Shown: piece by piece, positions 9,096 to 21,895 of the stretch
Position numbering within the stretch: the first letter of the stretch is position 1
Layout: each line of letters starts with the position of its first letter
Source: Actinomycetota bacterium
GTDB taxonomy: Bacteria; Actinomycetota; UBA4738; HRBIN12
NCBI GenBank assembly: GCA_038249195.1
Contig: JBBRWM010000001.1
Location: 395,489-459,488 of the forward strand
Direction of reading: 5' to 3'
Length of the DNA stretch: 64,000 nt
Position numbers and translations under genes: made by a program
Notes under the pieces: model-generated
The model's input: the letters and a program-made list of their open reading frames with translations, nothing else
Database searches by the model: none
Told to the model about the DNA's origin: nothing

Positions 9096-10589
9096 TCATG
9101 GCCGCCAGAATCGATACTTCTTGGGCCGCAGGGCCTTCCACGCACCAGGCCACGCGGAACGCGCCTCGGACTGCGCGAGGTGCTCCAGCCCAGCCAGCTC
9201 TCCGGCCACGAACGCGCCGCGCGCCGCGGTCCCGCCCGCCTGGGCGCGCAGCCAAGCGATGGCCACGACGGCATCCTGGTGCTCACCGAGGACGGTCTGC
9301 AGGTCCGCCGCGCGACGGGCGAACCGGCGGGCAGGCTTGCCGAAGATCGGGGTCATCGCCTCCGCGGCGTACCGGACCCGTTTCGCACGGATCCGCGCCT
9401 TGTGAAGCTCTCCGTCGGTCGACGCGGGGCCGAGCTCGCGGCAGATCCGCCGCAGATGGGCCCAGGGCCCCTCCATGAGTTCCCCCATGAACTCGTCGGC
9501 GGGGCGTCGCGTGAACTCGGGCAGCACCGCGGGCTCGGCCGCGGCGGCGACCACACGGTCGAGCAACGAGAGGTAGCGCGGTTCGCGCATCGCCGACATG
9601 AGGTCCATGCGGGCCGCGTCCCGCTCCGTGCGCACGCGATCCAAGAGCTTAGGAGCCGCCTCGACGTCGTCGTCCGGAAGCGATCTGATCCGCAGGCGGA
9701 GGCGTTCGTCCAACACGTCGAGGTCCCGCACGGTCCCCAACTCCCGGCCGAACCACTCCAGTTCCTCTCGCAGGTCCGCGACCCACGAGGGATCCAGGAG
9801 GGACCGATACGTCCGAAGGTCCGAGCGCAAACGCCGGGTCGCCACCCGCGCCTGGTGCACCGCCTCCGGATCCTCGCCCAACCGCACGCCCGCGTCGTGA
9901 CGAAGCATCCGCTCGGCCGAGCCCGCGATGGACGCGCGCACGACGTCGACGACGGCGGCGCCGGGCACGGGCTCGGCGGTGTGTACCTCGGGGGCTTCCG
10001 CCGAACGCGGCTGAAGGGCTCGCACGAACTTGGGAACCTCGCTGCGAGCCTCCGTCCCGCCGGAGTCCAGACGCGCCACGATCGATCTCAGGACATCGTC
10101 GTCGGCGTCGGGGGCGAGCTCGACCTCGACCTCGCGGAAGCGCCCGGCGACCCGTCTCCCGTCCAGTACCGACACCTCGTCGTCCACGACCTCCGCGACC
10201 CGACCGTTGCCGTTCACCTCGATCCCCAACCGACGGCGCACCGTCTGCAGGCGAACGGCGAGCCGCACGGGCGCGGTGCGAACGTACCCGCGCACCAGAT
10301 CCACCGCGCCTTCCGGGGGCCGTCCCGGGCCCGCCTCGAAGGAACGCTCGTCACGATCGAACCGCCCTTCGTTCACCGAGATCGGCAGCTTGACCGTCCA
10401 GCCCTCCCCCGTCCGGTACCGGAGAGCGCACCCCCATCGCGCGAGCCGCAGATCGGGTGTGTCGTAGTAGCTCGCCATGAACCGGCTCGAGCCCTCGTCG
10501 ACGGCGACGGCGCCGGGCACGACCTCGGTGAGATCGGGGATCTGGAACATCGGCCCCACCGCGAGCTTGACCTCACGCTCGACGGTCAT
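9096..10589 (-). CDS. CYTH (triphosphate tunnel metalloenzyme) + CHAD domain protein
   Basis: N-terminal CYTH (EREVKLAV...). The C-terminal CHAD helical domain carries conserved His/Arg (HQARVATRRLRSDLRTY ... HKARIRAKRVRYAAE). Its ATGA overlap with the ppk1 stop suggests an operon. Confidence 0.85.
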   Translation of the reverse strand: MTVEREVKLAVGPMFQIPDLTEVVPGAVAVDEGSSRFMASYYDTPDLRLARWGCALRYRTGEGWTVKLPISVNEGRFDRDERSFEAGPGRPPEGAVDLVRGYVRTAPVRLAVRLQTVRRRLGIEVNGNGRVAEVVDDEVSVLDGRRVAGRFREVEVELAPDADDDVLRSIVARLDSGGTEARSEVPKFVRALQPRSAEAPEVHTAEPVPGAAVVDVVRASIAGSAERMLRHDAGVRLGEDPEAVHQARVATRRLRSDLRTYRSLLDPSWVADLREELEWFGRELGTVRDLDVLDERLRLRIRSLPDDDVEAAPKLLDRVRTERDAARMDLMSAMREPRYLSLLDRVVAAAAEPAVLPEFTRRPADEFMGELMEGPWAHLRRICRELGPASTDGELHKARIRAKRVRYAAEAMTPIFGKPARRFARRAADLQTVLGEHQDAVVAIAWLRAQAGGTAARGAFVAGELAGLEHLAQSEARSAWPGAWKALRPKKYRFWRP

Positions 10590-12661
10590 GACGCCCCCAG
10601 GGCCCGGGCCACGGCGAGCTCCTGGAGCGTCCGGTGGGCGTTCACACCACGCGTCGTGGGCACGCGGTGCCAGTTCCCTCCTCCGTCAAGCTCCCACGCC
10701 AGTTCGTCGTCCTCGAGCTCGATGCGCAGCACCTCGTCGACGCGCACCTGCAAGGCGGGGTCGAGCACGGGCGTGAGCGCCTCCACGCGCCGGTCGAGGT
10801 TGCGCGGCATCATGTCGGCCGACCCGATGAGGTAGTCGTAGCCTCGATCCACGCTGCCGAACCGGTAGACCCGCGAGTGCTCCAAGAATCGTCCCACGAG
10901 CGATCGCGCTCGGATGGTCTCCGACATGCCGGGCACGCCCGGGCGCAGACAGCAGATCCCGCGAACGAGCAGGTCGATCTGCGCGCCCTGCTGCGAGGCC
11001 TCGTACAGGGCGTCGATCAGGTCGACGTCCACCAGGCTGTTCATCTTCAGCACGATGGAGCCATCCTCGTGCTGCGCCTCGCGCCGGATCAACGCCTCCA
11101 GGCCCGGACGCATGGACACCGGCGCGACCAGCAGCTTGCGGTACTCGCGCTGTCGGCTGTACCCCGTGAGGAGGTTGAAGAGGTCGGTGAGGTCGGCGCC
11201 GAGGTCGGGGTCGGAGGTGAGCAGCCCGAAGTCCTCGTAGAGGCGCGCCGTCTTTGGGTTGTAGTTGCCCGTTCCGATGTGGGCGTAGCGTCGGATGCCC
11301 TCCTCTTCCTGGCGCACGACGAGGCAGGTCTTCGCGTGCGTCTTCAGCCCCACCACCCCGTACACGACGTGGACGCCCGCGTGCTCCAGCTCGCGAGCGA
11401 AGGTGATGTTGGCCTCCTCGTCGAAGCGCGCCTTGAGCTCCACCAACGCCACGACCTGCTTGCCGGACTGCGAGGCTCGGATCAAGGCCCTGATGATCCG
11501 GCTCTCCGACGACGTCCGATACAGCGTCTGCTTGATGGCCAACACGTTGGGATCGGCGGCCGCCTGCGCCACGAACTCCTCCACGGTGCCGGAGAACGAC
11601 TCGTAGGGATGGTGCACCAAGATGTCGTGATCTCGCAGCGTGGCAAGGATGTCCGGGGGGACGTCGGTCGCCTGCAGCTCGAGGGGTGTGACCGGCGTCC
11701 AGGGATCGTCCTTCAGGTCCGGGCGGTCCAGCTCGACGAAGAACCAGAGCCCCGCGGTGTCGATCAGTCCCTCGGTAACGAACACCTGCGGCTCGTCCAG
11801 ACCCATCTCCCGCATGAGCAAGCTCCGCACCTCGTCCGTCATGCCCGGATCGATCTCCAGGCGGATCGGGGTGGCGCCCCGCTGCCGTCGCTGCAGGACC
11901 GTTTCGATCGCGGCCAGGAGGTCATCGGCCTCCTCCTCCTCCACCTCCACGTCGGCGTCGCGCGTCACACGGAACACGTGGAACGTGACGAGGTCCATGC
12001 CTGGGAAGAGCTGGTCGAGGTGCGCCGCGATGACCTGCTCGAGCGGAACGAAACGCTCCCCGTCGGGCAGCGCCGTGAACCGTGGCAGCAACGGGGGGAC
12101 CTTGACGCGCGCGAACCGACGCAGACCCGTGTGAGGGTCGCGCACCACCGCGGCGAGGTTCAGGGAAAGGTTCGAGATGTAGGGGAACGGATGCGCAGGA
12201 TCCACGGACAGAGGCGTGAGCACGGGGAAGATCCGGTCGCGGAACCGCCGGGCGAGGAACGCCCGGTCGTCCTCGTCGAGCTGTTCCCAGTCCATGATGC
12301 GGATCCGGTGTTTCTCGAGGGCGGGCTTCAGCTCCGTGAGCCACACCGCCTCCGCCCGGTCGGACAGTTCCACCACTTTGCGGCGGACGCCCTCCAGCTG
12401 TTCGGCGGGGGTCATCCCATCCGGGGCAACGACCGTCACTCCCGCCTCGACCTGCTCCTCGAGCCCGGACACCCGGATCTGGAAGAACTCATCGAGGTTG
12501 CTCGCGTAGATCGAGAGGAACCTCACCCGCTCCAACGGCGGCCGATCCGGATCCTCGGCCAGCGCCAGGACCCGCGCGTCGAACTCCAGCCACGACAGCT
12601 CGCGGTTGATGAAGCGGTTGATCGCGGAGCCGGCGAGATCAGGGAAGGCGCTATCGGTCAT
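10586..12661 (-). CDS. ppk: Polyphosphate kinase 1
   Basis: 691 aa with full-length PPK1 similarity (NRELSWLEFDARVL, LDEFFQIRV, two PLD-like HKD regions). Confidence 0.95.
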   Translation of the reverse strand: MTDSAFPDLAGSAINRFINRELSWLEFDARVLALAEDPDRPPLERVRFLSIYASNLDEFFQIRVSGLEEQVEAGVTVVAPDGMTPAEQLEGVRRKVVELSDRAEAVWLTELKPALEKHRIRIMDWEQLDEDDRAFLARRFRDRIFPVLTPLSVDPAHPFPYISNLSLNLAAVVRDPHTGLRRFARVKVPPLLPRFTALPDGERFVPLEQVIAAHLDQLFPGMDLVTFHVFRVTRDADVEVEEEEADDLLAAIETVLQRRQRGATPIRLEIDPGMTDEVRSLLMREMGLDEPQVFVTEGLIDTAGLWFFVELDRPDLKDDPWTPVTPLELQATDVPPDILATLRDHDILVHHPYESFSGTVEEFVAQAAADPNVLAIKQTLYRTSSESRIIRALIRASQSGKQVVALVELKARFDEEANITFARELEHAGVHVVYGVVGLKTHAKTCLVVRQEEEGIRRYAHIGTGNYNPKTARLYEDFGLLTSDPDLGADLTDLFNLLTGYSRQREYRKLLVAPVSMRPGLEALIRREAQHEDGSIVLKMNSLVDVDLIDALYEASQQGAQIDLLVRGICCLRPGVPGMSETIRARSLVGRFLEHSRVYRFGSVDRGYDYLIGSADMMPRNLDRRVEALTPVLDPALQVRVDEVLRIELEDDELAWELDGGGNWHRVPTTRGVNAHRTLQELAVARALGAS

Positions 12662-12787
12662 AGGCAGGCCTCCTATCGTAGGGGTCGCGCCACCAACGCT
12701 GCAATGGTCATCCGCCGCCTGACGCTCGCCTCAGCGGGCGTCTGGCATGATGTCGCCCTGCAACCGCCGGGAGCGACAGGAGGCCGC

Positions 12788-13411
12788 TTGAAGCTCAAAG
12801 TTTCCCAGCGTCCCGAGGCATTCTTCGACCTCTTCGTCGAGTCCGGGGAAAACCTTCGCGCCGCCTCGAGCGAGCTCCGGGCGATGGTCCACGATTACCA
12901 AGACGTCGAACTGAAGGCTCGAAGGATCCAAGAACGGGAGCACGAGGGCGACGAGGTTACCCACGCCATCATCCGCCGCCTCAACACCACGTTCGTCACC
13001 CCGATGGACCGCGAGGACATCCACCAACTGGCCACGGCGCTGGACGACGTGATGGACGCCATCGAGGCGGCCGCAGATCTCTTCGTACTGCATAACATCG
13101 AGACGCCGCTGCCCGAGATGAAGCTGCAGGTCGACGTGCTCGATCGTGCTGCCGAGCAGACCGACCAGGCCCTGCGCGCGTTCCGCAGCCTCAAGCGAGA
13201 CGAGCTCGAGCCCTATTGGGTCGAGATCAACAGCTTGGAGAACGAAGGGGACCAGATCTATCGGCGCGCGGTGGCCGGCCTGTTCTCCGGCGACTACCGA
13301 GCGATGGACGTCCTGCGCTGGAAAGAGGTCATCGAGACGCTCGAGGAGGCCCTCGACGGACTCGAGAACGTCGCGAACGTGATCGAATCGGCGGTGCTCA
13401 AGCACGCCTGA
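12788..13411 (+). CDS. DUF47 (PhoU-superfamily) phosphate-transport-associated protein
   Basis: TTG start about 5 nt after AGGAGG. The sequence (AFFDLFVESGENL...GDEVTHAIIRRLNTTFVTPMDREDI) matches the DUF47/Pit-accessory family. It sits in-frame inside a longer spurious ORF antisense to ppk. Confidence 0.8.
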   Translation: MKLKVSQRPEAFFDLFVESGENLRAASSELRAMVHDYQDVELKARRIQEREHEGDEVTHAIIRRLNTTFVTPMDREDIHQLATALDDVMDAIEAAADLFVLHNIETPLPEMKLQVDVLDRAAEQTDQALRAFRSLKRDELEPYWVEINSLENEGDQIYRRAVAGLFSGDYRAMDVLRWKEVIETLEEALDGLENVANVIESAVLKHA

Positions 13412-13418
13412 ACGGGTG

Positions 13419-13646
13419 TCACGTCCTCGCGTCTCGACGGGCGTTCTTCCTCGGTGTGTGGGCAGGGCGGAGCGGCGTGGCCTTGCGGAGGGACCGTTCC
13501 TCCAGGTACAACGCGACAGCCCAGAACAGCGCCAGCCCGGCCGCGAACAGGTTGACCCATCGATACTCAGGCGGCGTGGGCTCCAAGATCAACAGGCAAA
13601 GGAACGCCAGGGCGGCGAAGAATAAGGGGCGGCGTCCGATCCTCAC
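13419..13646 (-). CDS. Small predicted 2-TM membrane protein (75 aa), translationally coupled to pitA
   Basis: GTG start overlaps the pitA stop (GTGA). VRIGRRPLFFAALAFLCLLILEPTPPEYRWVNLFAAGLALFWAVALYLEERSLRKATPLRPAHTPRKNARRDART has two hydrophobic helices and a basic tail, with high GC3. Confidence 0.35.
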   Translation of the reverse strand: MRIGRRPLFFAALAFLCLLILEPTPPEYRWVNLFAAGLALFWAVALYLEERSLRKATPLRPAHTPRKNARRDART

Positions 13647-14632
13647 GTGACCGCCTTGATCGGTAGGTACACGAGATAGCTGATCACGAACGCCCCCGGG
13701 ATCGTCAGGACCCAGGCCCACACGACCCGTTGGGCGACCCCCCATCGCACCGCCGACAAGCGCTGCGTGGTGCCCACACCCACGATGCCGCCCGTGATCG
13801 TGTGCGTGGTCGACACGGGGATCCCCGCGAGGGTAGTGGCCATGATGGTGACCGCCGCCGCCGACTCGGCGGCCACCCCCTGCGCCGGCTGGATCTTGGT
13901 GATCTTCGAGCCCATCGTGTGAACGATGCGCCAGCCCCCGAACAGCGTGCCGAGCGCGATCGCCGTGTGCGCACTCAACACCACCCAGAGCGGGACACCC
14001 TCGGCCTTGGTGCGTAGGCCGTTCGCGACGAGAAGAGCGAACACGACGCCCATCGTCTTCTGCGCGTCGTTGGCCCCATGGGCGAGGCTGAACGCCGCGG
14101 CCGAGAACAACTGCCCGTGGCGGAAGCCACGATGCAGCCGCTCCTGGCGTTTGGCCCGATGGAAGAGCCAATAGATCGCCACCATGAACGTGAATCCCAA
14201 CAGCAGCCCCAGCACGGGGGAGAGCACGATGAATACCGCGATCTTCTGGAACTCGGATGCAACGAGGGCCCCCCAGCCCGCCTCCGCCACCGCCGCGCCC
14301 GCCATCGCCCCGACGAGAGCATGGGAGCTGGAGGTCGGAAGGCCGAACAGCCATGTGATGAGATCCCAAGCGATCGCTCCCGCGAGGCCCGCGAAGATCA
14401 CCCCGTTGTTGAAGACCCCCGGCTTGACCGTGTTCGCGATCGTAGCGGCCACCTTCGTGCCGAACACGAGGAACGCAACGAAGTTGAAGAATGCCGCCCA
14501 TGCCACGGCTTGGCGAGGAGACAGCACCCGCGTCGACACGACGGTGGCGATCGAGTTGGCCGCATCGTGGAAACCGTTGAAGAAATCGAACCCGAACGCC
14601 ACCACGACGATGACGGCGATCGCAGGCGTCAT
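13643..14632 (-). CDS. pitA: Inorganic phosphate transporter, PiT family
   Basis: PHO4/PiT signatures (GFHDAANSIATVVST ... GANDAQKTMGV), about 10 TM helices. Start chosen at MTPAIAVIVVV; 4-nt overlap with the upstream DUF47 gene. Confidence 0.9.
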   Translation of the reverse strand: MTPAIAVIVVVAFGFDFFNGFHDAANSIATVVSTRVLSPRQAVAWAAFFNFVAFLVFGTKVAATIANTVKPGVFNNGVIFAGLAGAIAWDLITWLFGLPTSSSHALVGAMAGAAVAEAGWGALVASEFQKIAVFIVLSPVLGLLLGFTFMVAIYWLFHRAKRQERLHRGFRHGQLFSAAAFSLAHGANDAQKTMGVVFALLVANGLRTKAEGVPLWVVLSAHTAIALGTLFGGWRIVHTMGSKITKIQPAQGVAAESAAAVTIMATTLAGIPVSTTHTITGGIVGVGTTQRLSAVRWGVAQRVVWAWVLTIPGAFVISYLVYLPIKAVT

Positions 14633-15246
14633 GCGAACTTGAGCGCCACGGACTCGAGCGTGTTCGCGATGTCCTCGCAACGGTCCACAGCCGCCTCAGC
14701 CTCGCGGAGCAGATCCTTCCACATGATGACCTCGAGAGGTCGGAAGTCTCCCGAGTACAGGGTTGCGACCCCGCGGCGATACACCCAGTCCCCTTCGCGT
14801 TCGTTCCGCTTGATCTCGGCGATGGCCTTCTCCAGTCCTTGGAAATGCCTGAGGTCCCTGACGGCGAACGCCACGGACGTAGCCGTCCGGCGAAGGACGT
14901 CGACGAGCTGGAGGAACTGCGGGAGCGGCTCGCGGATCTGGAGGAGCACGAGCAGGTCGGCCAAAGCCTCTTCGGAATCCAAGACATCGTCGAGCGAGGA
15001 CGCGAGTGCGTGGATGTCCTTACGATCGATCGGGACGACGAAGGTCGTATTCAGGAGGTTCAAGATCTGGTGGGTCAGGTCGTCGCCGTCGTGTTCGAGA
15101 TCGCGGATCCGGTCGCCATAGCCTTCCGCGTTACCCAGGTCGGTGATCATCGCGGAGAGGTCCACGACCCCCCGGACGACCGTATCGGCGAGCTGATCGA
15201 ACAGATCGAAGAAGGCGAGTTCGCGGGGGATGACTTGGAACGGCAT
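14629..15246 (-). CDS. DUF47 (PhoU-superfamily) Pit accessory protein
   Basis: LAFFDLFDQLADTVV...GDDLTHQILNLLNTTFVVPIDRKDI. This is the classic DUF47 partner immediately upstream of pitA. Confidence 0.85.
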   Translation of the reverse strand: MPFQVIPRELAFFDLFDQLADTVVRGVVDLSAMITDLGNAEGYGDRIRDLEHDGDDLTHQILNLLNTTFVVPIDRKDIHALASSLDDVLDSEEALADLLVLLQIREPLPQFLQLVDVLRRTATSVAFAVRDLRHFQGLEKAIAEIKRNEREGDWVYRRGVATLYSGDFRPLEVIMWKDLLREAEAAVDRCEDIANTLESVALKFA

Positions 15247-15302
15247 GTCCTCGAACCCTCCCGCCAGCCGATAGCGGAGCGACGGTACCGGGCGGCAGCG
15301 GA

Positions 15303-15342
15303 GGTGTCCACTGGGTGAACACGAAGGGAACGAGAGGTGTCG
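15303..15342 (-). promoter_or_regulatory. PHO box array (four 11-nt direct repeat units) upstream of DUF47-pitA
   Basis: The minus strand reads CGACACCtctc GTTCCCTtcgt GTTCACCcagt GGACACC, i.e. four units in strict 11-nt register. The third is the canonical GTTCACC. The array is centred about 70 nt upstream of the DUF47 start. Confidence 0.55.
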
Positions 15343-16038
15343 CTAATCGACGAACTTGTAGCCCAACCCTCGCACCGTGATCAGGTGCTCGGGGTCGTGC
15401 GGATCGTCCTCGACCTTCTGCCGGATCCGCTTCACGTGCACGTCGAGCGTCTTGGTGTCCCCCACGTAGTCACTCCCCCACACGTCTTCGATCAAGAACA
15501 GGCGGGTGAGCAGACGATCCTTCCGGCGCAGGAACGCCTCCAGCAGCTCGAACTCCTTGGGTGGGAACGCCACGAGGTCCCCCTGGACCGATACCTCGTG
15601 GCGGGCCACGTCCATCCGCACGGGACCGCCGGTGAGGACCTCCTCGGGCGGAAGCGCGGTTCCCATCGCCGCCCGGCGCAGGTGCGCCCGGACCCGCGAG
15701 ACCAGTTCGCGCACCGAGAATGGCTTCGTGACGTAGTCGTCCGCCCCCAATTCGAGCCCCGTCACCTTGTCGGCCTCGGCGTCCTTGGCCGTGACCATGA
15801 TGATCGGCACGGCGGAGTCCTGACGGATGAGGCGGCACACGTCCAGTCCGGACATCTCAGGGAGCATCAGGTCCAAGATCACGAGCGCGGGATGGAACTC
15901 GGCGAAGCGCTCCATGGCCCGTCGTCCGTCCGAGGCGACTGCCACATCGAAGCCTTCCCGCTCGAGGTTGTAGCGGACCGAGTCGGCGAGCGACTCTTCA
16001 TCTTCAACGATCAGGATCCGCGGCGACGGGCCGTTCAT
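15343..16038 (-). CDS. regX3: OmpR-family response regulator, RegX3/PhoP-like
   Basis: RILIVEDEESLADS...LDLMLPEMSGLDVC...VPIIMVTAKD...LELGADDYVTKPFSVRELVSRVRAHLRR is near-identical in pattern to mycobacterial RegX3. ATGA overlap with phoU. Confidence 0.9.
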   Translation of the reverse strand: MNGPSPRILIVEDEESLADSVRYNLEREGFDVAVASDGRRAMERFAEFHPALVILDLMLPEMSGLDVCRLIRQDSAVPIIMVTAKDAEADKVTGLELGADDYVTKPFSVRELVSRVRAHLRRAAMGTALPPEEVLTGGPVRMDVARHEVSVQGDLVAFPPKEFELLEAFLRRKDRLLTRLFLIEDVWGSDYVGDTKTLDVHVKRIRQKVEDDPHDPEHLITVRGLGYKFVD

Positions 16039-20517: not shown

Positions 20518-20596
20518 GTCGATCTCGACCTCCTCGTCGTGAGTTGTCCGCCCGTGGGAACGCTAGGAGTTGGGCATGGACACCTGATTGCGCGAG

Positions 20597-20634
20597 CGTG
20601 AACGCAACGTGAACGCCGCTCTCACGATGAACGG
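20597..20634 (-). promoter_or_regulatory. PHO box (PhoP/RegX3-type direct repeats) upstream of pstS, shared with divergent sensor kinase gene
   Basis: On the minus strand there are two perfect heptamers CGTTCAC (core GTTCAC) spaced exactly 11 nt apart, about 80-100 nt upstream of the pstS start. A third, degenerate GTTCATC unit lies 19 nt further upstream. Coordinates +-2. Confidence 0.55.
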
Positions 20635-20692
20635 GCCGGGAACGAGGACAACAGGAGAAGAAGGGGAAGCAGCCGCGACATGAACGGCTCAC

Positions 20693-21895
20693 GTGTCCCG
20701 TCGGGACGGATCGGGCAGACCCTACACTGCCGCCATGGACGGTCTCGGATGGATCGTGGCCGTGGTGGTCGGGGGACTCGCCGTGGCGGCGGGCATCGCG
20801 CTCGGCCGGAGCTCTCGGGCTCACGCCCTGAGCAGGTCGCAGGAGCGAGCGTCCGCGGCCGAGGCGGCGCTCGAGCGCATCGATCGTTCCTCAAAACACG
20901 ACCGACGCGTTCAGGACCTGATCCTGGCGACCATGCAGGAAGGGATCCTGCTGCTGGACGACGGGGGGCGGCTCGCGTTCGCCAACGATGCCGTCGCACG
21001 ACACCTCGGCAGGCGCCCCGCCACGATCCACCAGCTCCTACCCATGGCCGCACGAGATCTGGTCGAACGCGTCGCCGTCACGGGGGAGGGTGAGAGCTGC
21101 GAGGCTGCCTACGGGAGCCCCACACGATGGTTGCGGGTCACCGCGACACCGGCGGGCGCGGACGGGTCGCTGCTGGTGGTCGTTCGCGACGTCACCGAGT
21201 CCCGTCGCATCGAACACATCCGCCGCGATTTCGTCGCGAACGCCTCGCACGAACTGAAGACACCGGCGGCAACCATCCAGGCGGCCGCGGAGACCCTCCA
21301 CGACGCGGCCCAGGACGACCCCGCTGCCGTGCGGCGTTTCGCGACCCAACTCGATCGTGACGCCCGGCGATTGTCCCGCATCGTCGCCGACCTCCTCGAC
21401 CTGTCTCGGCTCGAGACAGGGAGCGAACTCGATCAAGACGTGCGGCTCGAGACGGTCGTCAACGACGAGGCGGGCCGCTTCGAAGCGGCCGCACGGGAGG
21501 CTGGTCTTGCCCTCGTCGTCGACCCGCATCGCGCCGGGCGCGTGCGGGGGTCCTCCCGGGACCTCTCCCTGCTGGTGCGCAACCTCATCGACAATGCGGT
21601 CCGGTACACGCCGCGGGGAGGGACCGTGCGTGTCGAGCTCACCGAGGACGACGACGTGGTCCACCTGTCGGTGTGCGACGACGGGGCGGGGATCCCCACG
21701 AGGGATCTCCCGCGGGTCTTCGAGCGGTTCTACCGCGTGGATCGGGCTCGCTCCCGGGAAACGGGGGGCACCGGTCTCGGCCTGTCCATCGTCAGGCACG
21801 TGGCGGAGAACCACGGCGGCAACGTCCACGTCACGAGCGAGCTGGGCCGAGGGTCGACCTTCGTCGTGACCATCCCGCTCGCGCCGCCCGCCTAG
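20693..21895 (+). CDS. Sensor histidine kinase, SenX3/PhoR-like (TM + PAS + HisKA + HATPase)
   Basis: One N-terminal TM helix, a PAS-like segment, H-box ANASHELKTP, N/G boxes (NLIDNAVRYT, DDGAGIP, GGTGLGLSIV). Divergent from pstS. Alternative ATG start near 20735. Confidence 0.85.
   Translation: MSRRDGSGRPYTAAMDGLGWIVAVVVGGLAVAAGIALGRSSRAHALSRSQERASAAEAALERIDRSSKHDRRVQDLILATMQEGILLLDDGGRLAFANDAVARHLGRRPATIHQLLPMAARDLVERVAVTGEGESCEAAYGSPTRWLRVTATPAGADGSLLVVVRDVTESRRIEHIRRDFVANASHELKTPAATIQAAAETLHDAAQDDPAAVRRFATQLDRDARRLSRIVADLLDLSRLETGSELDQDVRLETVVNDEAGRFEAAAREAGLALVVDPHRAGRVRGSSRDLSLLVRNLIDNAVRYTPRGGTVRVELTEDDDVVHLSVCDDGAGIPTRDLPRVFERFYRVDRARSRETGGTGLGLSIVRHVAENHGGNVHVTSELGRGSTFVVTIPLAPPA

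What the first reader, a model, noticed from the sequence alone, without database searches (positions are those of the whole stretch)
15303..15342. Second PHO box: four 11-nt direct repeat units including canonical GTTCACC upstream of DUF47-pitA
Between the regulator stop and the DUF47 start, the minus strand has CGACACC/GTTCCCT/GTTCACC/GGACACC in perfect 11-nt register. Such multi-unit arrays are typical of strongly regulated PHO promoters. This suggests the Pit system here has its own Pho-dependent promoter inside the large cluster rather than simply reading through from pst; pitH2 of Streptomyces is PhoP-activated.
Basis: partly seen in the sequence, partly recalled or inferred. Interest (0 to 1): 0.55.

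Follow-up and report, generated by a model that had tools for sequence, protein, structure and literature searches.

The report
Pho box at internal pit promoter
The short gap between a phosphate-response regulator gene and a DUF47-Pit phosphate-transporter operon holds a conserved internal promoter. Two binding-site repeats of the actinobacterial phosphate regulator sit directly against it, which is an ordinary but well-supported Pho-regulon promoter in an uncultured actinobacterium.

Summary
Units 2 and 3 (GTTCCCTtcgt GTTCACCcagt, 15331-15310) form a real PHO-box core. The tandem pattern occurs only 3 times in 64 kb (0.02 expected); the other two are at pstS. The pair is conserved with fixed spacing in 24 other distinct relatives, while the bases between the heptamers vary.

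Unit 4 (GGACACC) overlaps the -35 hexamer TGGACA of a conserved promoter, TGGACA-N17-TACCGT. That promoter persists in relatives lacking the repeats, and in some it drives leaderless transcripts. Unit 4 may also be a weak extension site. Unit 1 scores at background level and is not conserved.

The adjacent regulator is a RegX3/PhoP orthologue with a near-identical recognition helix. In relatives where DUF47-pit is unlinked from pst, the same repeats and promoter are present, so this is an independent promoter.

The best model is RegX3/PhoP-type control, probably activation, layered on a self-sufficient internal promoter; no binding or direction was tested. The pitH2 analogy is imprecise: this is a pap-pitH1-type operon, which in Streptomyces lacks PHO boxes. 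This is a new member of a known kind, of modest interest.

The parts
15343..16035 (-). OmpR-family response regulator, RegX3/PhoP orthologue. It is the last gene of the pstSCAB-phoU-RR run; stop TAG at 15345-15343. The start is approximate.
   Evidence: Pfam Response_reg + Trans_reg_C. The best solved-structure hit is M. tuberculosis RegX3 2oqr (E 2.3e-83, full length), with the recognition helix TKTLDVHVKRIRQK against TKTLDVHVKRLRSK.
15332..15342 (-). It is not supported as a repeat unit.
   Evidence: PWM score -4.8 bits. The column consensus in 25 distinct promoters is not DRu-like. It shares the 8-mer GACACCTC with unit 4 at 33-nt spacing, and that repeat is not conserved.
15321..15331 (-). 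This is a weakened variant with A5 changed to C.
   Evidence: It is part of the tandem pattern found 3 times in the window against 0.02 expected. Positions 1-5 and 7 of this unit are 92-100% conserved in relatives. The GTTCCC variant also pairs with a canonical unit at pstS in the window and in L095.
15310..15320 (-).
   Evidence: PWM score 12.7 bits, top 3e-5 of window 11-mers. Heptamer columns are 88-100% conserved across 25 distinct promoters.
15299..15309 (-). It overlaps the -35 hexamer and may be a weak extension unit.
   Evidence: PWM score 0.2 bits. GGACA is followed by two pyrimidines in 21/23 promoters with repeats against 4/18 without (Fisher p = 1e-5, not corrected for phylogeny).
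15305..15310 (-). -35 hexamer TGGACA of the internal promoter.
   Evidence: Conserved in about 50 relatives, with or without repeats. TGGACA-N17/18-TASNNT occurs once in the window, here, against 0.02 expected.
15282..15287 (-). -10 hexamer TACCGT (TANNNT type), 17 nt after the -35. The inferred transcription start is near 15275.
   Evidence: In L028, L031, L032, L080 and L084 the homologous -10 lies 6-7 nt from the start codon (leaderless). The generic E. coli-type promoter scan did not call it.
15256..15262 (-). Ribosome-binding site GGGAGGG.
   Evidence: Read directly from the sequence.
14629..15246 (-). DUF47 / PhoU_div gene (the 'pap' Pit ancillary protein type), first gene of the regulated operon.
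   Evidence: Pfam PF01865, E 3.6e-24. The N-terminus MPFQVIPRE is conserved in homologues.
13643..14632 (-). Pit (PHO4 family) phosphate transporter, 329 aa. Its ATG overlaps the DUF47 stop (ATGA).
   Evidence: Pfam PF01384, E 3.6e-94; sequence.
20593..20643 (-). pstS-promoter PHO boxes used as the in-genome reference: GTTCCCGgcccGTTCATCgtga (20643-20622) and GTTCACGttgcGTTCACGctcg (20614-20593).
   Evidence: The homologous pairs at pstS in L010, L094 and L095 lie 27 nt from a TANNNT.
20693..21895 (+). PhoR/PnpS/SenX3-like sensor kinase, divergent from pstS.
   Evidence: NCBIfam best hits are PnpS (5.7e-90) and PhoR (1.1e-84), both below the curated cut-offs.

Best explanation
The 96-nt gap between the RegX3/PhoP-type regulator gene and DUF47 holds a sigma-A-type internal promoter: -35 TGGACA (15310-15305), a 17-nt spacer and -10 TACCGT (15287-15282). 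Two head-to-tail 11-nt repeat units of the actinobacterial PHO-box type (15331-15310) are fused to its upstream edge.

When phosphate is limiting, the kinase encoded next to pstS phosphorylates the regulator, and a regulator dimer binds the two core units. It may extend cooperatively onto the weaker GGACACC unit that overlaps the -35. Bound regulator then contacts RNA polymerase and raises transcription of DUF47-pit above the promoter's basal level, adding to any read-through from pst.

Shown here: the motif, its statistical excess, its conservation and fixed geometry, the promoter, and the regulator's orthology. Inferred: binding, phosphate dependence and the direction of the effect (activation).
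For: 1. The tandem pattern occurs 3 times in the window against 0.02 expected, and all three are upstream of pstS or DUF47. These are also the top three PWM pairs.
2. In relatives the pattern is about 200-fold denser in the 120 nt upstream of DUF47 than elsewhere. Five of the nine other hits are pstS promoters and three more lie in other Pho-type upstream regions.
3. In 25 distinct promoters the heptamers are 88-100% conserved (apart from the C/T position 6 of the first unit), while several of the intervening bases are only about 45-55% conserved. The distance to TGGACA never varies.
4. The promoter is conserved without the repeats and drives leaderless genes in five loci. It is unique in the window.
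5. L011 and L025 carry the same module although they are not linked to pst or the regulator.
6. The regulator is 2oqr RegX3-like, E 2.3e-83, with a near-identical recognition helix. The published RegX3 box is G(T/G)TCAcc-n4-cG (PMC7884335, citing Glover 2007), and the S. coelicolor PhoP unit is G(G/T)TCAYYYR(G/C)G with at least two units required (PMC2275107).
7. Microlunatus PolR binds GTTCACn5GTTCaC at pit, ppk and pstS promoters and acts positively (PMC6754071).
8. The core ends about 35 nt before the inferred start. Activated S. coelicolor pstS and phoU have 39 and 38 nt, on the coding strand.
9. There is no terminator between the regulator gene and DUF47, and the pst-phoU-RR-DUF47-pit order is conserved. 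This fits co-induction under phosphate limitation.
Against: - There are no binding or expression data.
- The core promoter has a near-consensus -35 and survives without repeats in many relatives (for example L094, whose pstS still has them). It therefore does not need an activator.
- The repeats abut, and may overlap, the -35, which could equally mean repression.
- The core lies 5 nt closer to the -10 than at the pstS promoters of the same lineage (22 against 27 nt). That is about half a helical turn.
- Unit 2 carries C at position 5 and is weak.
- In Streptomyces the homologous pap-pitH1 operon is not Pho-regulated (PMC7866108). In S. meliloti orfA-pit is repressed on phosphate starvation (PMC3131613).
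- Many relatives are close to one another, so the counts are not independent events.
Confidence: 0.6

Rival explanations
1. The binding site and regulator are the same, but the effect is opposite or biphasic. The phosphorylated regulator on units 2-3-4 occludes the good -35 hexamer and represses the otherwise constitutive internal Pit promoter under phosphate limitation. Alternatively it activates at low occupancy and represses at high occupancy.
For: - The core promoter looks self-sufficient and is kept without repeats in relatives.
- The third unit overlapping the -35 shows repeat-like constraint only where repeats are present.
- S. coelicolor pitH2 is listed as 'Activation/repression'.
- S. 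meliloti orfA-pit is repressed on phosphate starvation (PMC3131613).
- L086 has three GTTCAC units between the -10 and the start codon, which is a repressor-type position.
Against: - The box is upstream of the -35, not over the -10, the start site or the 5' UTR as in S. meliloti.
- Its strand, orientation and distance match activated Streptomyces promoters.
- Repression would work against the conserved position directly downstream of the induced pst operon with no terminator.
- Microlunatus PolR acts positively on pit (PMC6754071).
Confidence: 0.22
2. This is a full four-unit operator. Two regulator dimers occupy units 1-2 and units 3-4, with the downstream dimer replacing sigma region 4 at the -35, as in the 4PhoP activation complex.
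For: - All four units are in exact 11-nt register.
- Poorly conserved extension units are footprinted in S. coelicolor class III operators (PMC2275107).
- Tandem dimers overlapping the -35 are seen in PhoP activation complexes (PMC11825685).
- Some relatives have a recognisable GTTC unit at the unit-1 position (L013, L025) or 3-4 units (L034, L036).
- Unit 4 matches the IUPAC consensus at 9 of 11 positions (counted directly from the sequence).
Against: - Unit 1 scores -4.8 bits and is not conserved. The closest relative, L092, has a different spacing there.
- Unit 4's conservation is mostly explained by its role as the -35, since TGGACA is kept where no repeats exist.
Confidence: 0.15
3. The repeats are bound by a different OmpR-family regulator (GlnR-, MtrA- or AfsR-like), or by none. 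The promoter is then simply constitutive and DUF47-pit phosphate responsiveness comes only from pst read-through.
For: - No experimental binding data exist.
- Several relatives manage without the repeats.
- Actinobacterial OmpR-family boxes can overlap; PhoP/GlnR competition is an example (PMC3561978, title and abstract only).
Against: - The same motif marks the pstS promoters in the window and in relatives.
- It matches the published PhoP/RegX3/PolR boxes.
- The heptamers are conserved while the bases between them vary, and the spacing is fixed. This argues for selection.
- The chance expectation is 0.02 per window.
Confidence: 0.05

Closest known systems
Streptomyces coelicolor PHO boxes (PhoP direct-repeat units; pstS, phoU and pitH2 operators)
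   Same: - 11-nt head-to-tail units with a conserved 7-nt core GTTCAYC.
- At least two consecutive units, with weaker extension units possible.
- Coding strand, ending about 35-40 nt before the transcription start.
- The regulator is the RegX3/PhoP orthologue (PMC2275107).
   Different: - The host is an uncultured Actinomycetota lineage.
- The regulated operon is DUF47(pap)-pit, not the monocistronic 423-aa pitH2.
- The box abuts a near-consensus -35 rather than standing in for a missing one.
- The regulator gene sits inside the pst cluster, and the kinase gene is separate.
Microlunatus phosphovorus PolR box GTTCACnnnnnGTTCaC at pit, ppk and pstS promoters
   Same: The 17-bp tandem motif is essentially identical, it lies upstream of pit and pstS genes, and it is bound by a PhoP/RegX3-family regulator (EMSA, footprint, ChIP; PMC6754071).
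   Different: PolR was linked to the aerobic/anaerobic shift. No PHO-type pair was found at the ppk promoter in this window. Gene contexts differ.
Streptomyces pap-pitH1 operon
   Same: The operon type is the same: a DUF47 (~206 aa) gene followed by a ~330-aa Pit, co-transcribed from a promoter upstream of pap, within a pst/ppk phosphate supercluster (PMC7866108).
   Different: In Streptomyces it has no PHO box, is not PhoP-regulated and is oriented opposite to pstSCAB. Here it carries a PHO-box core and lies co-directionally downstream of pstSCAB-phoU-RR.
Sinorhizobium meliloti orfA-pit
   Same: A DUF47-type orfA plus a pit operon under Pho-regulator control (PMC3131613, citing Bardin et al.; PMC7866108).
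   Different: It is repressed on phosphate starvation, with the PHO box just upstream of the start codon. The PhoB box sequence is different. Here the box lies upstream of the -35.
Mycobacterium SenX3-RegX3
   Same: RegX3 is the closest solved homologue of the regulator. The RegX3 box G(T/G)TCAcc-n4-cG matches the units here (PMC7884335).
   Different: senX3 and regX3 are adjacent in mycobacteria (from my own knowledge). Here the kinase and regulator genes are separated by pstSCAB-phoU.

Membership tests
Actinobacterial PHO box (PhoP/RegX3/PolR direct-repeat operator) | At least two consecutive 11-nt direct-repeat units with core G(G/T)TCAYY | tested here: met
   GTTCCCTtcgt and GTTCACCcagt at 15331-15310. 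The pattern occurs 3 times in the window against 0.02 expected. Criterion taken from PMC2275107.
Actinobacterial PHO box (PhoP/RegX3/PolR direct-repeat operator) | At least one well-conserved unit (GTTCAY) in the core | tested here: met
   Unit 3, GTTCACC: 12.7 of about 13 bits on the lineage 7-mer PWM and 10 of 11 matches to the published IUPAC consensus (counted directly from the sequence).
Actinobacterial PHO box (PhoP/RegX3/PolR direct-repeat operator) | The same motif is present at the canonical Pho-regulon promoter (pstS) of the same genome | tested here: met
   Window 20614-20593 and 20643-20622. Also found at pstS in L010, L094 and L095.
Actinobacterial PHO box (PhoP/RegX3/PolR direct-repeat operator) | A cognate PhoP/RegX3-type regulator and a PhoR-type kinase are encoded | tested here: met
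   The regulator's best hit is RegX3 2oqr, E 2.3e-83, against MtrA at 1.5e-62, with a near-identical recognition helix. The kinase's best hits are PnpS and PhoR, below the curated cut-offs.
Actinobacterial PHO box (PhoP/RegX3/PolR direct-repeat operator) | The site is conserved at orthologous promoters (phylogenetic footprint) | tested here: met
   25 distinct promoters with heptamers 88-100% conserved (apart from one C/T position), several spacer positions about 45-55% conserved and a fixed distance to the -35. The site is absent in some lineages.
Actinobacterial PHO box (PhoP/RegX3/PolR direct-repeat operator) | Specific binding by the phosphorylated regulator (EMSA or footprint) and phosphate- and regulator-dependent transcription | not testable with these tools
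   This needs purified protein, reporter fusions or RNA data from an uncultured organism or a heterologous host.
   Unit 1 scores -4.8 bits and is not conserved, so it is not met by sequence. Unit 4 scores 0.2 bits and is also the -35 hexamer, but it shows the YY bias only in promoters with repeats. Extension units can only be settled by footprinting.
Sigma-A (housekeeping) actinobacterial promoter | A -35 like TTGACA, a 16-18 nt spacer and a TANNNT -10, conserved at orthologous positions | tested here: met
   TGGACA-17-TACCGT is unique in the window. It is conserved in about 50 loci and sits 6-7 nt from the start codon in five leaderless cases. The transcription start itself was not mapped.
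Streptomyces pitH2-type PhoP-activated transporter gene | A monocistronic ~423-aa PitH2 without a DUF47 partner | tested here: not met
   The Pit here is 329 aa, translationally coupled to an upstream DUF47 gene. This is the pap-pitH1 architecture (PMC7866108).
S. meliloti-type PhoB-repressed orfA-pit | The PHO box lies just upstream of the translation start, downstream of the promoter | tested here: not met
   In the window the box lies upstream of the -35, 64-85 nt before the ATG. A geometry of that kind is seen only in the distant locus L086.

The most novel reading that the evidence does not exclude
The DUF47-pit promoter is a natural case of modular regulon rewiring. A fixed, self-sufficient core promoter has repeatedly gained and lost PhoP/RegX3 repeats placed exactly against its -35, and in one lineage (L086) downstream of its -10. 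The same low-affinity phosphate transporter would then be constitutive, Pho-activated or Pho-repressed in closely related uncultured Actinomycetota. In the window itself the -35-overlapping third unit could make the response biphasic: activation at low regulator occupancy and repression at high occupancy.
Probability: 0.25. Interest if true: 0.45.

Novelty: new member of a known kind. Interest (0 to 1): 0.3.

Why it matters
It extends the well-studied Streptomyces/Mycobacterium PHO-box model to an uncultured Actinomycetota lineage. It also shows that the DUF47(pap)-pit operon, which is not Pho-regulated in Streptomyces, can carry a PHO box.

For annotation, it splits the pstSCAB-phoU-regulator-DUF47-pit run into at least two transcription units, and it gives a lineage-specific motif and geometry for predicting the Pho regulon in these genomes. 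Presence or absence of the repeats on an otherwise unchanged promoter among relatives offers a simple system for studying gain and loss of regulator sites. None of this would surprise a specialist.

Tried and rejected
- **Generic promoter/terminator scan of 15000-15600.** It found nothing. Its E. coli-type -10 criterion (TATAAT-like) misses the actinobacterial TANNNT; the promoter was found by comparison instead. The absence of a terminator was kept as a result.
- **Genome-collection scan with the DUF47 protein.** It returned only relatives at 41% identity or less, with a different gene order (PhoU directly upstream, no regulator).
- **11-mer PWMs including the four weak positions.** They over-fitted the small training sets, for example penalising unit 3 on the pstS-trained matrix. 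A 7-mer core PWM replaced them.
- **Rfam scan of the whole window.** No RNA family was found, so no known riboswitch or leader lies in the gap.
- **Folding of the 5' UTRs of 40 relatives.** GC-rich hairpins are frequent but not consistently placed. I did not pursue a conserved leader structure.
- **Units 1 and 4 as a meaningful 8-nt direct repeat, GACACCTC at 33 nt.** By my rough estimate about 0.2 such repeats are expected by chance in a stretch this size, and it is not conserved, so I rejected it as a feature.
- **Glover 2007 (PMC1951828).** The paper is not held, so the RegX3 box is cited second-hand from PMC7884335.

Full report
**Context.** The window has 69% G+C. On the minus strand it carries a phosphate supercluster, in this order:
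- pstS (20517-19405), pstC, pstA, pstB and phoU;
- an OmpR-family response regulator with stop TAG at 15345-15343;
- a 96-nt gap;
- a DUF47/PhoU_div gene (15246-14629);
- a 329-aa PHO4-family Pit transporter whose ATG overlaps the DUF47 stop (14632-13643);
- a small ORF, then ppk (12661-10586) and a CYTH-CHAD gene.

A second DUF47 gene lies on the plus strand (about 12785-13411). A PhoR/PnpS-like kinase gene (20693-21895, plus strand) diverges from pstS. DUF47 homologues of 60-91% identity come from metagenomes and from genomes labelled Actinomycetota bacterium. The same gene order recurs in L010, L094 and L095.

**Observation.** They are not equally credible.
- The tandem pattern GTTCMYN5GTTCMY occurs three times on both strands of the 64-kb window against 0.02 expected. 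The sites are units 2-3 here and two pairs upstream of pstS.
- A 7-mer weight matrix trained only on sequences from relatives scores the units at -4.8, 2.3, 12.7 and 0.2 bits.
- The three best tandem pairs in the window are again these three sites, with 0.57 pairs of this site's score or better expected per window.

**Comparative evidence.** I collected about 80 loci encoding DUF47 relatives and aligned their upstream regions on the promoter.
1. About 50 loci share TGGACA-N17/18-TA(C/G)NNT upstream of DUF47. In L028, L031, L032, L080 and L084 the -10 is 6-7 nt from the start codon. That is the leaderless arrangement common in actinobacteria and is hard to explain unless this is a real promoter. 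In the window the pattern occurs once, at 15310-15282, against 0.02 expected.
2. In 25 distinct promoters, counting the window, two units GTTCAYCnnnnGTTCACCnnn abut the T of TGGACA with no variation in spacing. The heptamer columns are 88-100% conserved apart from the C/T position 6 of the first unit. Several of the intervening positions are only about 45-55% conserved, and the flanks vary freely.
3. Across all loci the tandem pattern is about 200-fold denser in the 120 nt upstream of DUF47 than elsewhere. Of the nine other hits, five are pstS promoters.
4. L011 (upstream gene divergent, SnoaL-like) and L025 carry the same repeats and promoter although DUF47-pit is not downstream of pst or the regulator. 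The module therefore works as an independent promoter.
5. Other relatives keep the core promoter but have no repeats. L094 is one, and its pstS promoter still has a canonical pair. The repeats are thus an optional regulatory layer on a promoter that appears self-sufficient.

**The four units.**
- Units 2 and 3 are the conserved core.
- Unit 4 is first of all the -35 hexamer, since TGGACA is retained where there are no repeats. However, GGACA is followed by two pyrimidines, as a repeat unit would require, in 21 of 23 promoters with repeats against 4 of 18 without (p = 1e-5, uncorrected for relatedness). By my own grouping of near-identical promoters into lineages this is roughly 13 of 15 against 4 of 18. 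A weak extension unit overlapping the -35 is therefore plausible.
- Unit 1 has no support. Its column consensus is not repeat-like, and the closest relative (L092, 91% identical DUF47) has a different spacing there. Its 8-nt identity with unit 4 is not conserved. Some relatives do have a third or fourth GTTC unit upstream (L013, L025, L034, L036), so the number of units varies between lineages.

**Regulator.** The adjacent response regulator's best solved homologue is M. tuberculosis RegX3 (E 2.3e-83, full length), ahead of MtrA at 1.5e-62. The recognition helix is almost identical. The published sites agree with the motif here:
- the RegX3 box is G(T/G)TCAcc-n4-cG (PMC7884335, citing Glover et al. 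2007);
- the S. coelicolor PhoP unit is G(G/T)TCAYYYR(G/C)G, with at least two units required and weak extension units bound cooperatively (PMC2275107);
- Microlunatus PolR binds GTTCACnnnnnGTTCaC at pit, ppk and pstS promoters (PMC6754071).

**Mechanism.** The most likely model is that the phosphorylated regulator binds units 2-3, possibly spreading onto unit 4, and stimulates the internal promoter.
- The core ends about 35 nt before the inferred start near 15275. Activated S. coelicolor pstS and phoU have 39 and 38 nt, on the coding strand.
- Structures of PhoP activation complexes show tandem dimers at and upstream of the -35 contacting sigma region 4 and the beta flap (PMC11825685).
- No terminator separates the regulator gene from DUF47, so read-through from pst probably adds to this promoter.

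The direction is not settled. The promoter has a good -35 of its own. The core is 5 nt closer to the -10 than at this lineage's pstS promoters, which lack a -35 (22 against 27 nt). Pho regulators repress orfA-pit in S. meliloti (PMC3131613), and S. coelicolor pitH2 is listed as 'Activation/repression'. My estimates are about 0.85 that the cluster's regulator binds this site, about 0.6 for the full activation model and about 0.2 for repression or a biphasic response.

**Comparison with known systems.** This is a PHO box of the actinobacterial PhoP/RegX3/PolR kind, and every sequence-level criterion I could test is met. The analogy to pitH2 is only functional. The operon here is the pap-pitH1 type, which in Streptomyces has no PHO box and is not PhoP-regulated (PMC7866108). 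The S. meliloti arrangement, with the box next to the start codon, is not what the window shows.

**Verdict.** This is a real, conserved and statistically well-supported feature. It is a new member of a known kind, with a minor twist: a PHO box on a pap-pit operon, placed on a self-sufficient internal promoter, with evolutionary gain and loss among relatives. Interest is modest.

Noticed in passing
window 20693-21895 (+) and 15343-16035 (-): The phosphate two-component system is split. The PhoR/PnpS-like kinase gene diverges from pstS, while the RegX3-like regulator gene is the sixth gene of the pstSCAB-phoU run, about 4.7 kb away. The arrangement is conserved in L010, L094 and L095.
   Followed up: partly
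window 20560-20690 (-): The pstS/kinase divergent region holds at least five GTTCA/GTTCC units, as two in-register pairs 18 nt apart plus GTTCATG at 20685. In-register weaker units (CGCAATC, GTCCATG) follow the strong pair. There is no -35 hexamer, and a TAGCGT -10 lies 27 nt after the pair. This geometry is conserved in L010, L094 and L095.
   Followed up: partly
L086 2440-2500: In a distant, unlinked DUF47-pit locus, three GTTCAC units in 11-nt register lie on the opposite strand, between the predicted -10 and the GTG start of DUF47. The divergent upstream gene is a PhoX-like alkaline phosphatase. For pit this is a repression-type position.
   Followed up: partly
L058, L065, L071, L073-L075, L085: 5' UTR between the -10 and the DUF47 start: A 9-nt tandem repeat (CCGGAGATG-like) is present in different copy numbers, roughly one to four, in otherwise near-identical relatives. 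It lengthens the leader from 38 to 56-65 nt.
   Followed up: no
window about 12785-13411 (+) and 12662-12790: A second DUF47/PhoU_div gene lies on the plus strand, divergent from ppk. The longer minus-strand ORF 12731-13405 is spurious. The shared gap has no GTTCA pair but contains a conserved CCATTGCRGC ... CTACGATRG promoter-like stretch, also seen in L010, L094 and L095.
   Followed up: partly
It is not conserved in relatives and is probably chance.
   Followed up: yes
L010 9582-13334; window 9096-12661 (-): In L010, PPK, CYTH and CHAD are called as one 1250-aa product. In the window ppk and the CYTH-CHAD gene are separate and overlap by 4 nt (10586-10589). In L094 the CHAD gene lacks CYTH.
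   Followed up: no
window 15247-15281 (-) and homologous leaders: The first bases after the -10 are conserved, (C/G)CGC(A/T)C(C/G)GC, and often form the 5' arm of a short GC-rich hairpin ahead of the ribosome-binding site. The placement is not consistent enough to call a conserved RNA structure, and there is no Rfam hit.
   Followed up: partly
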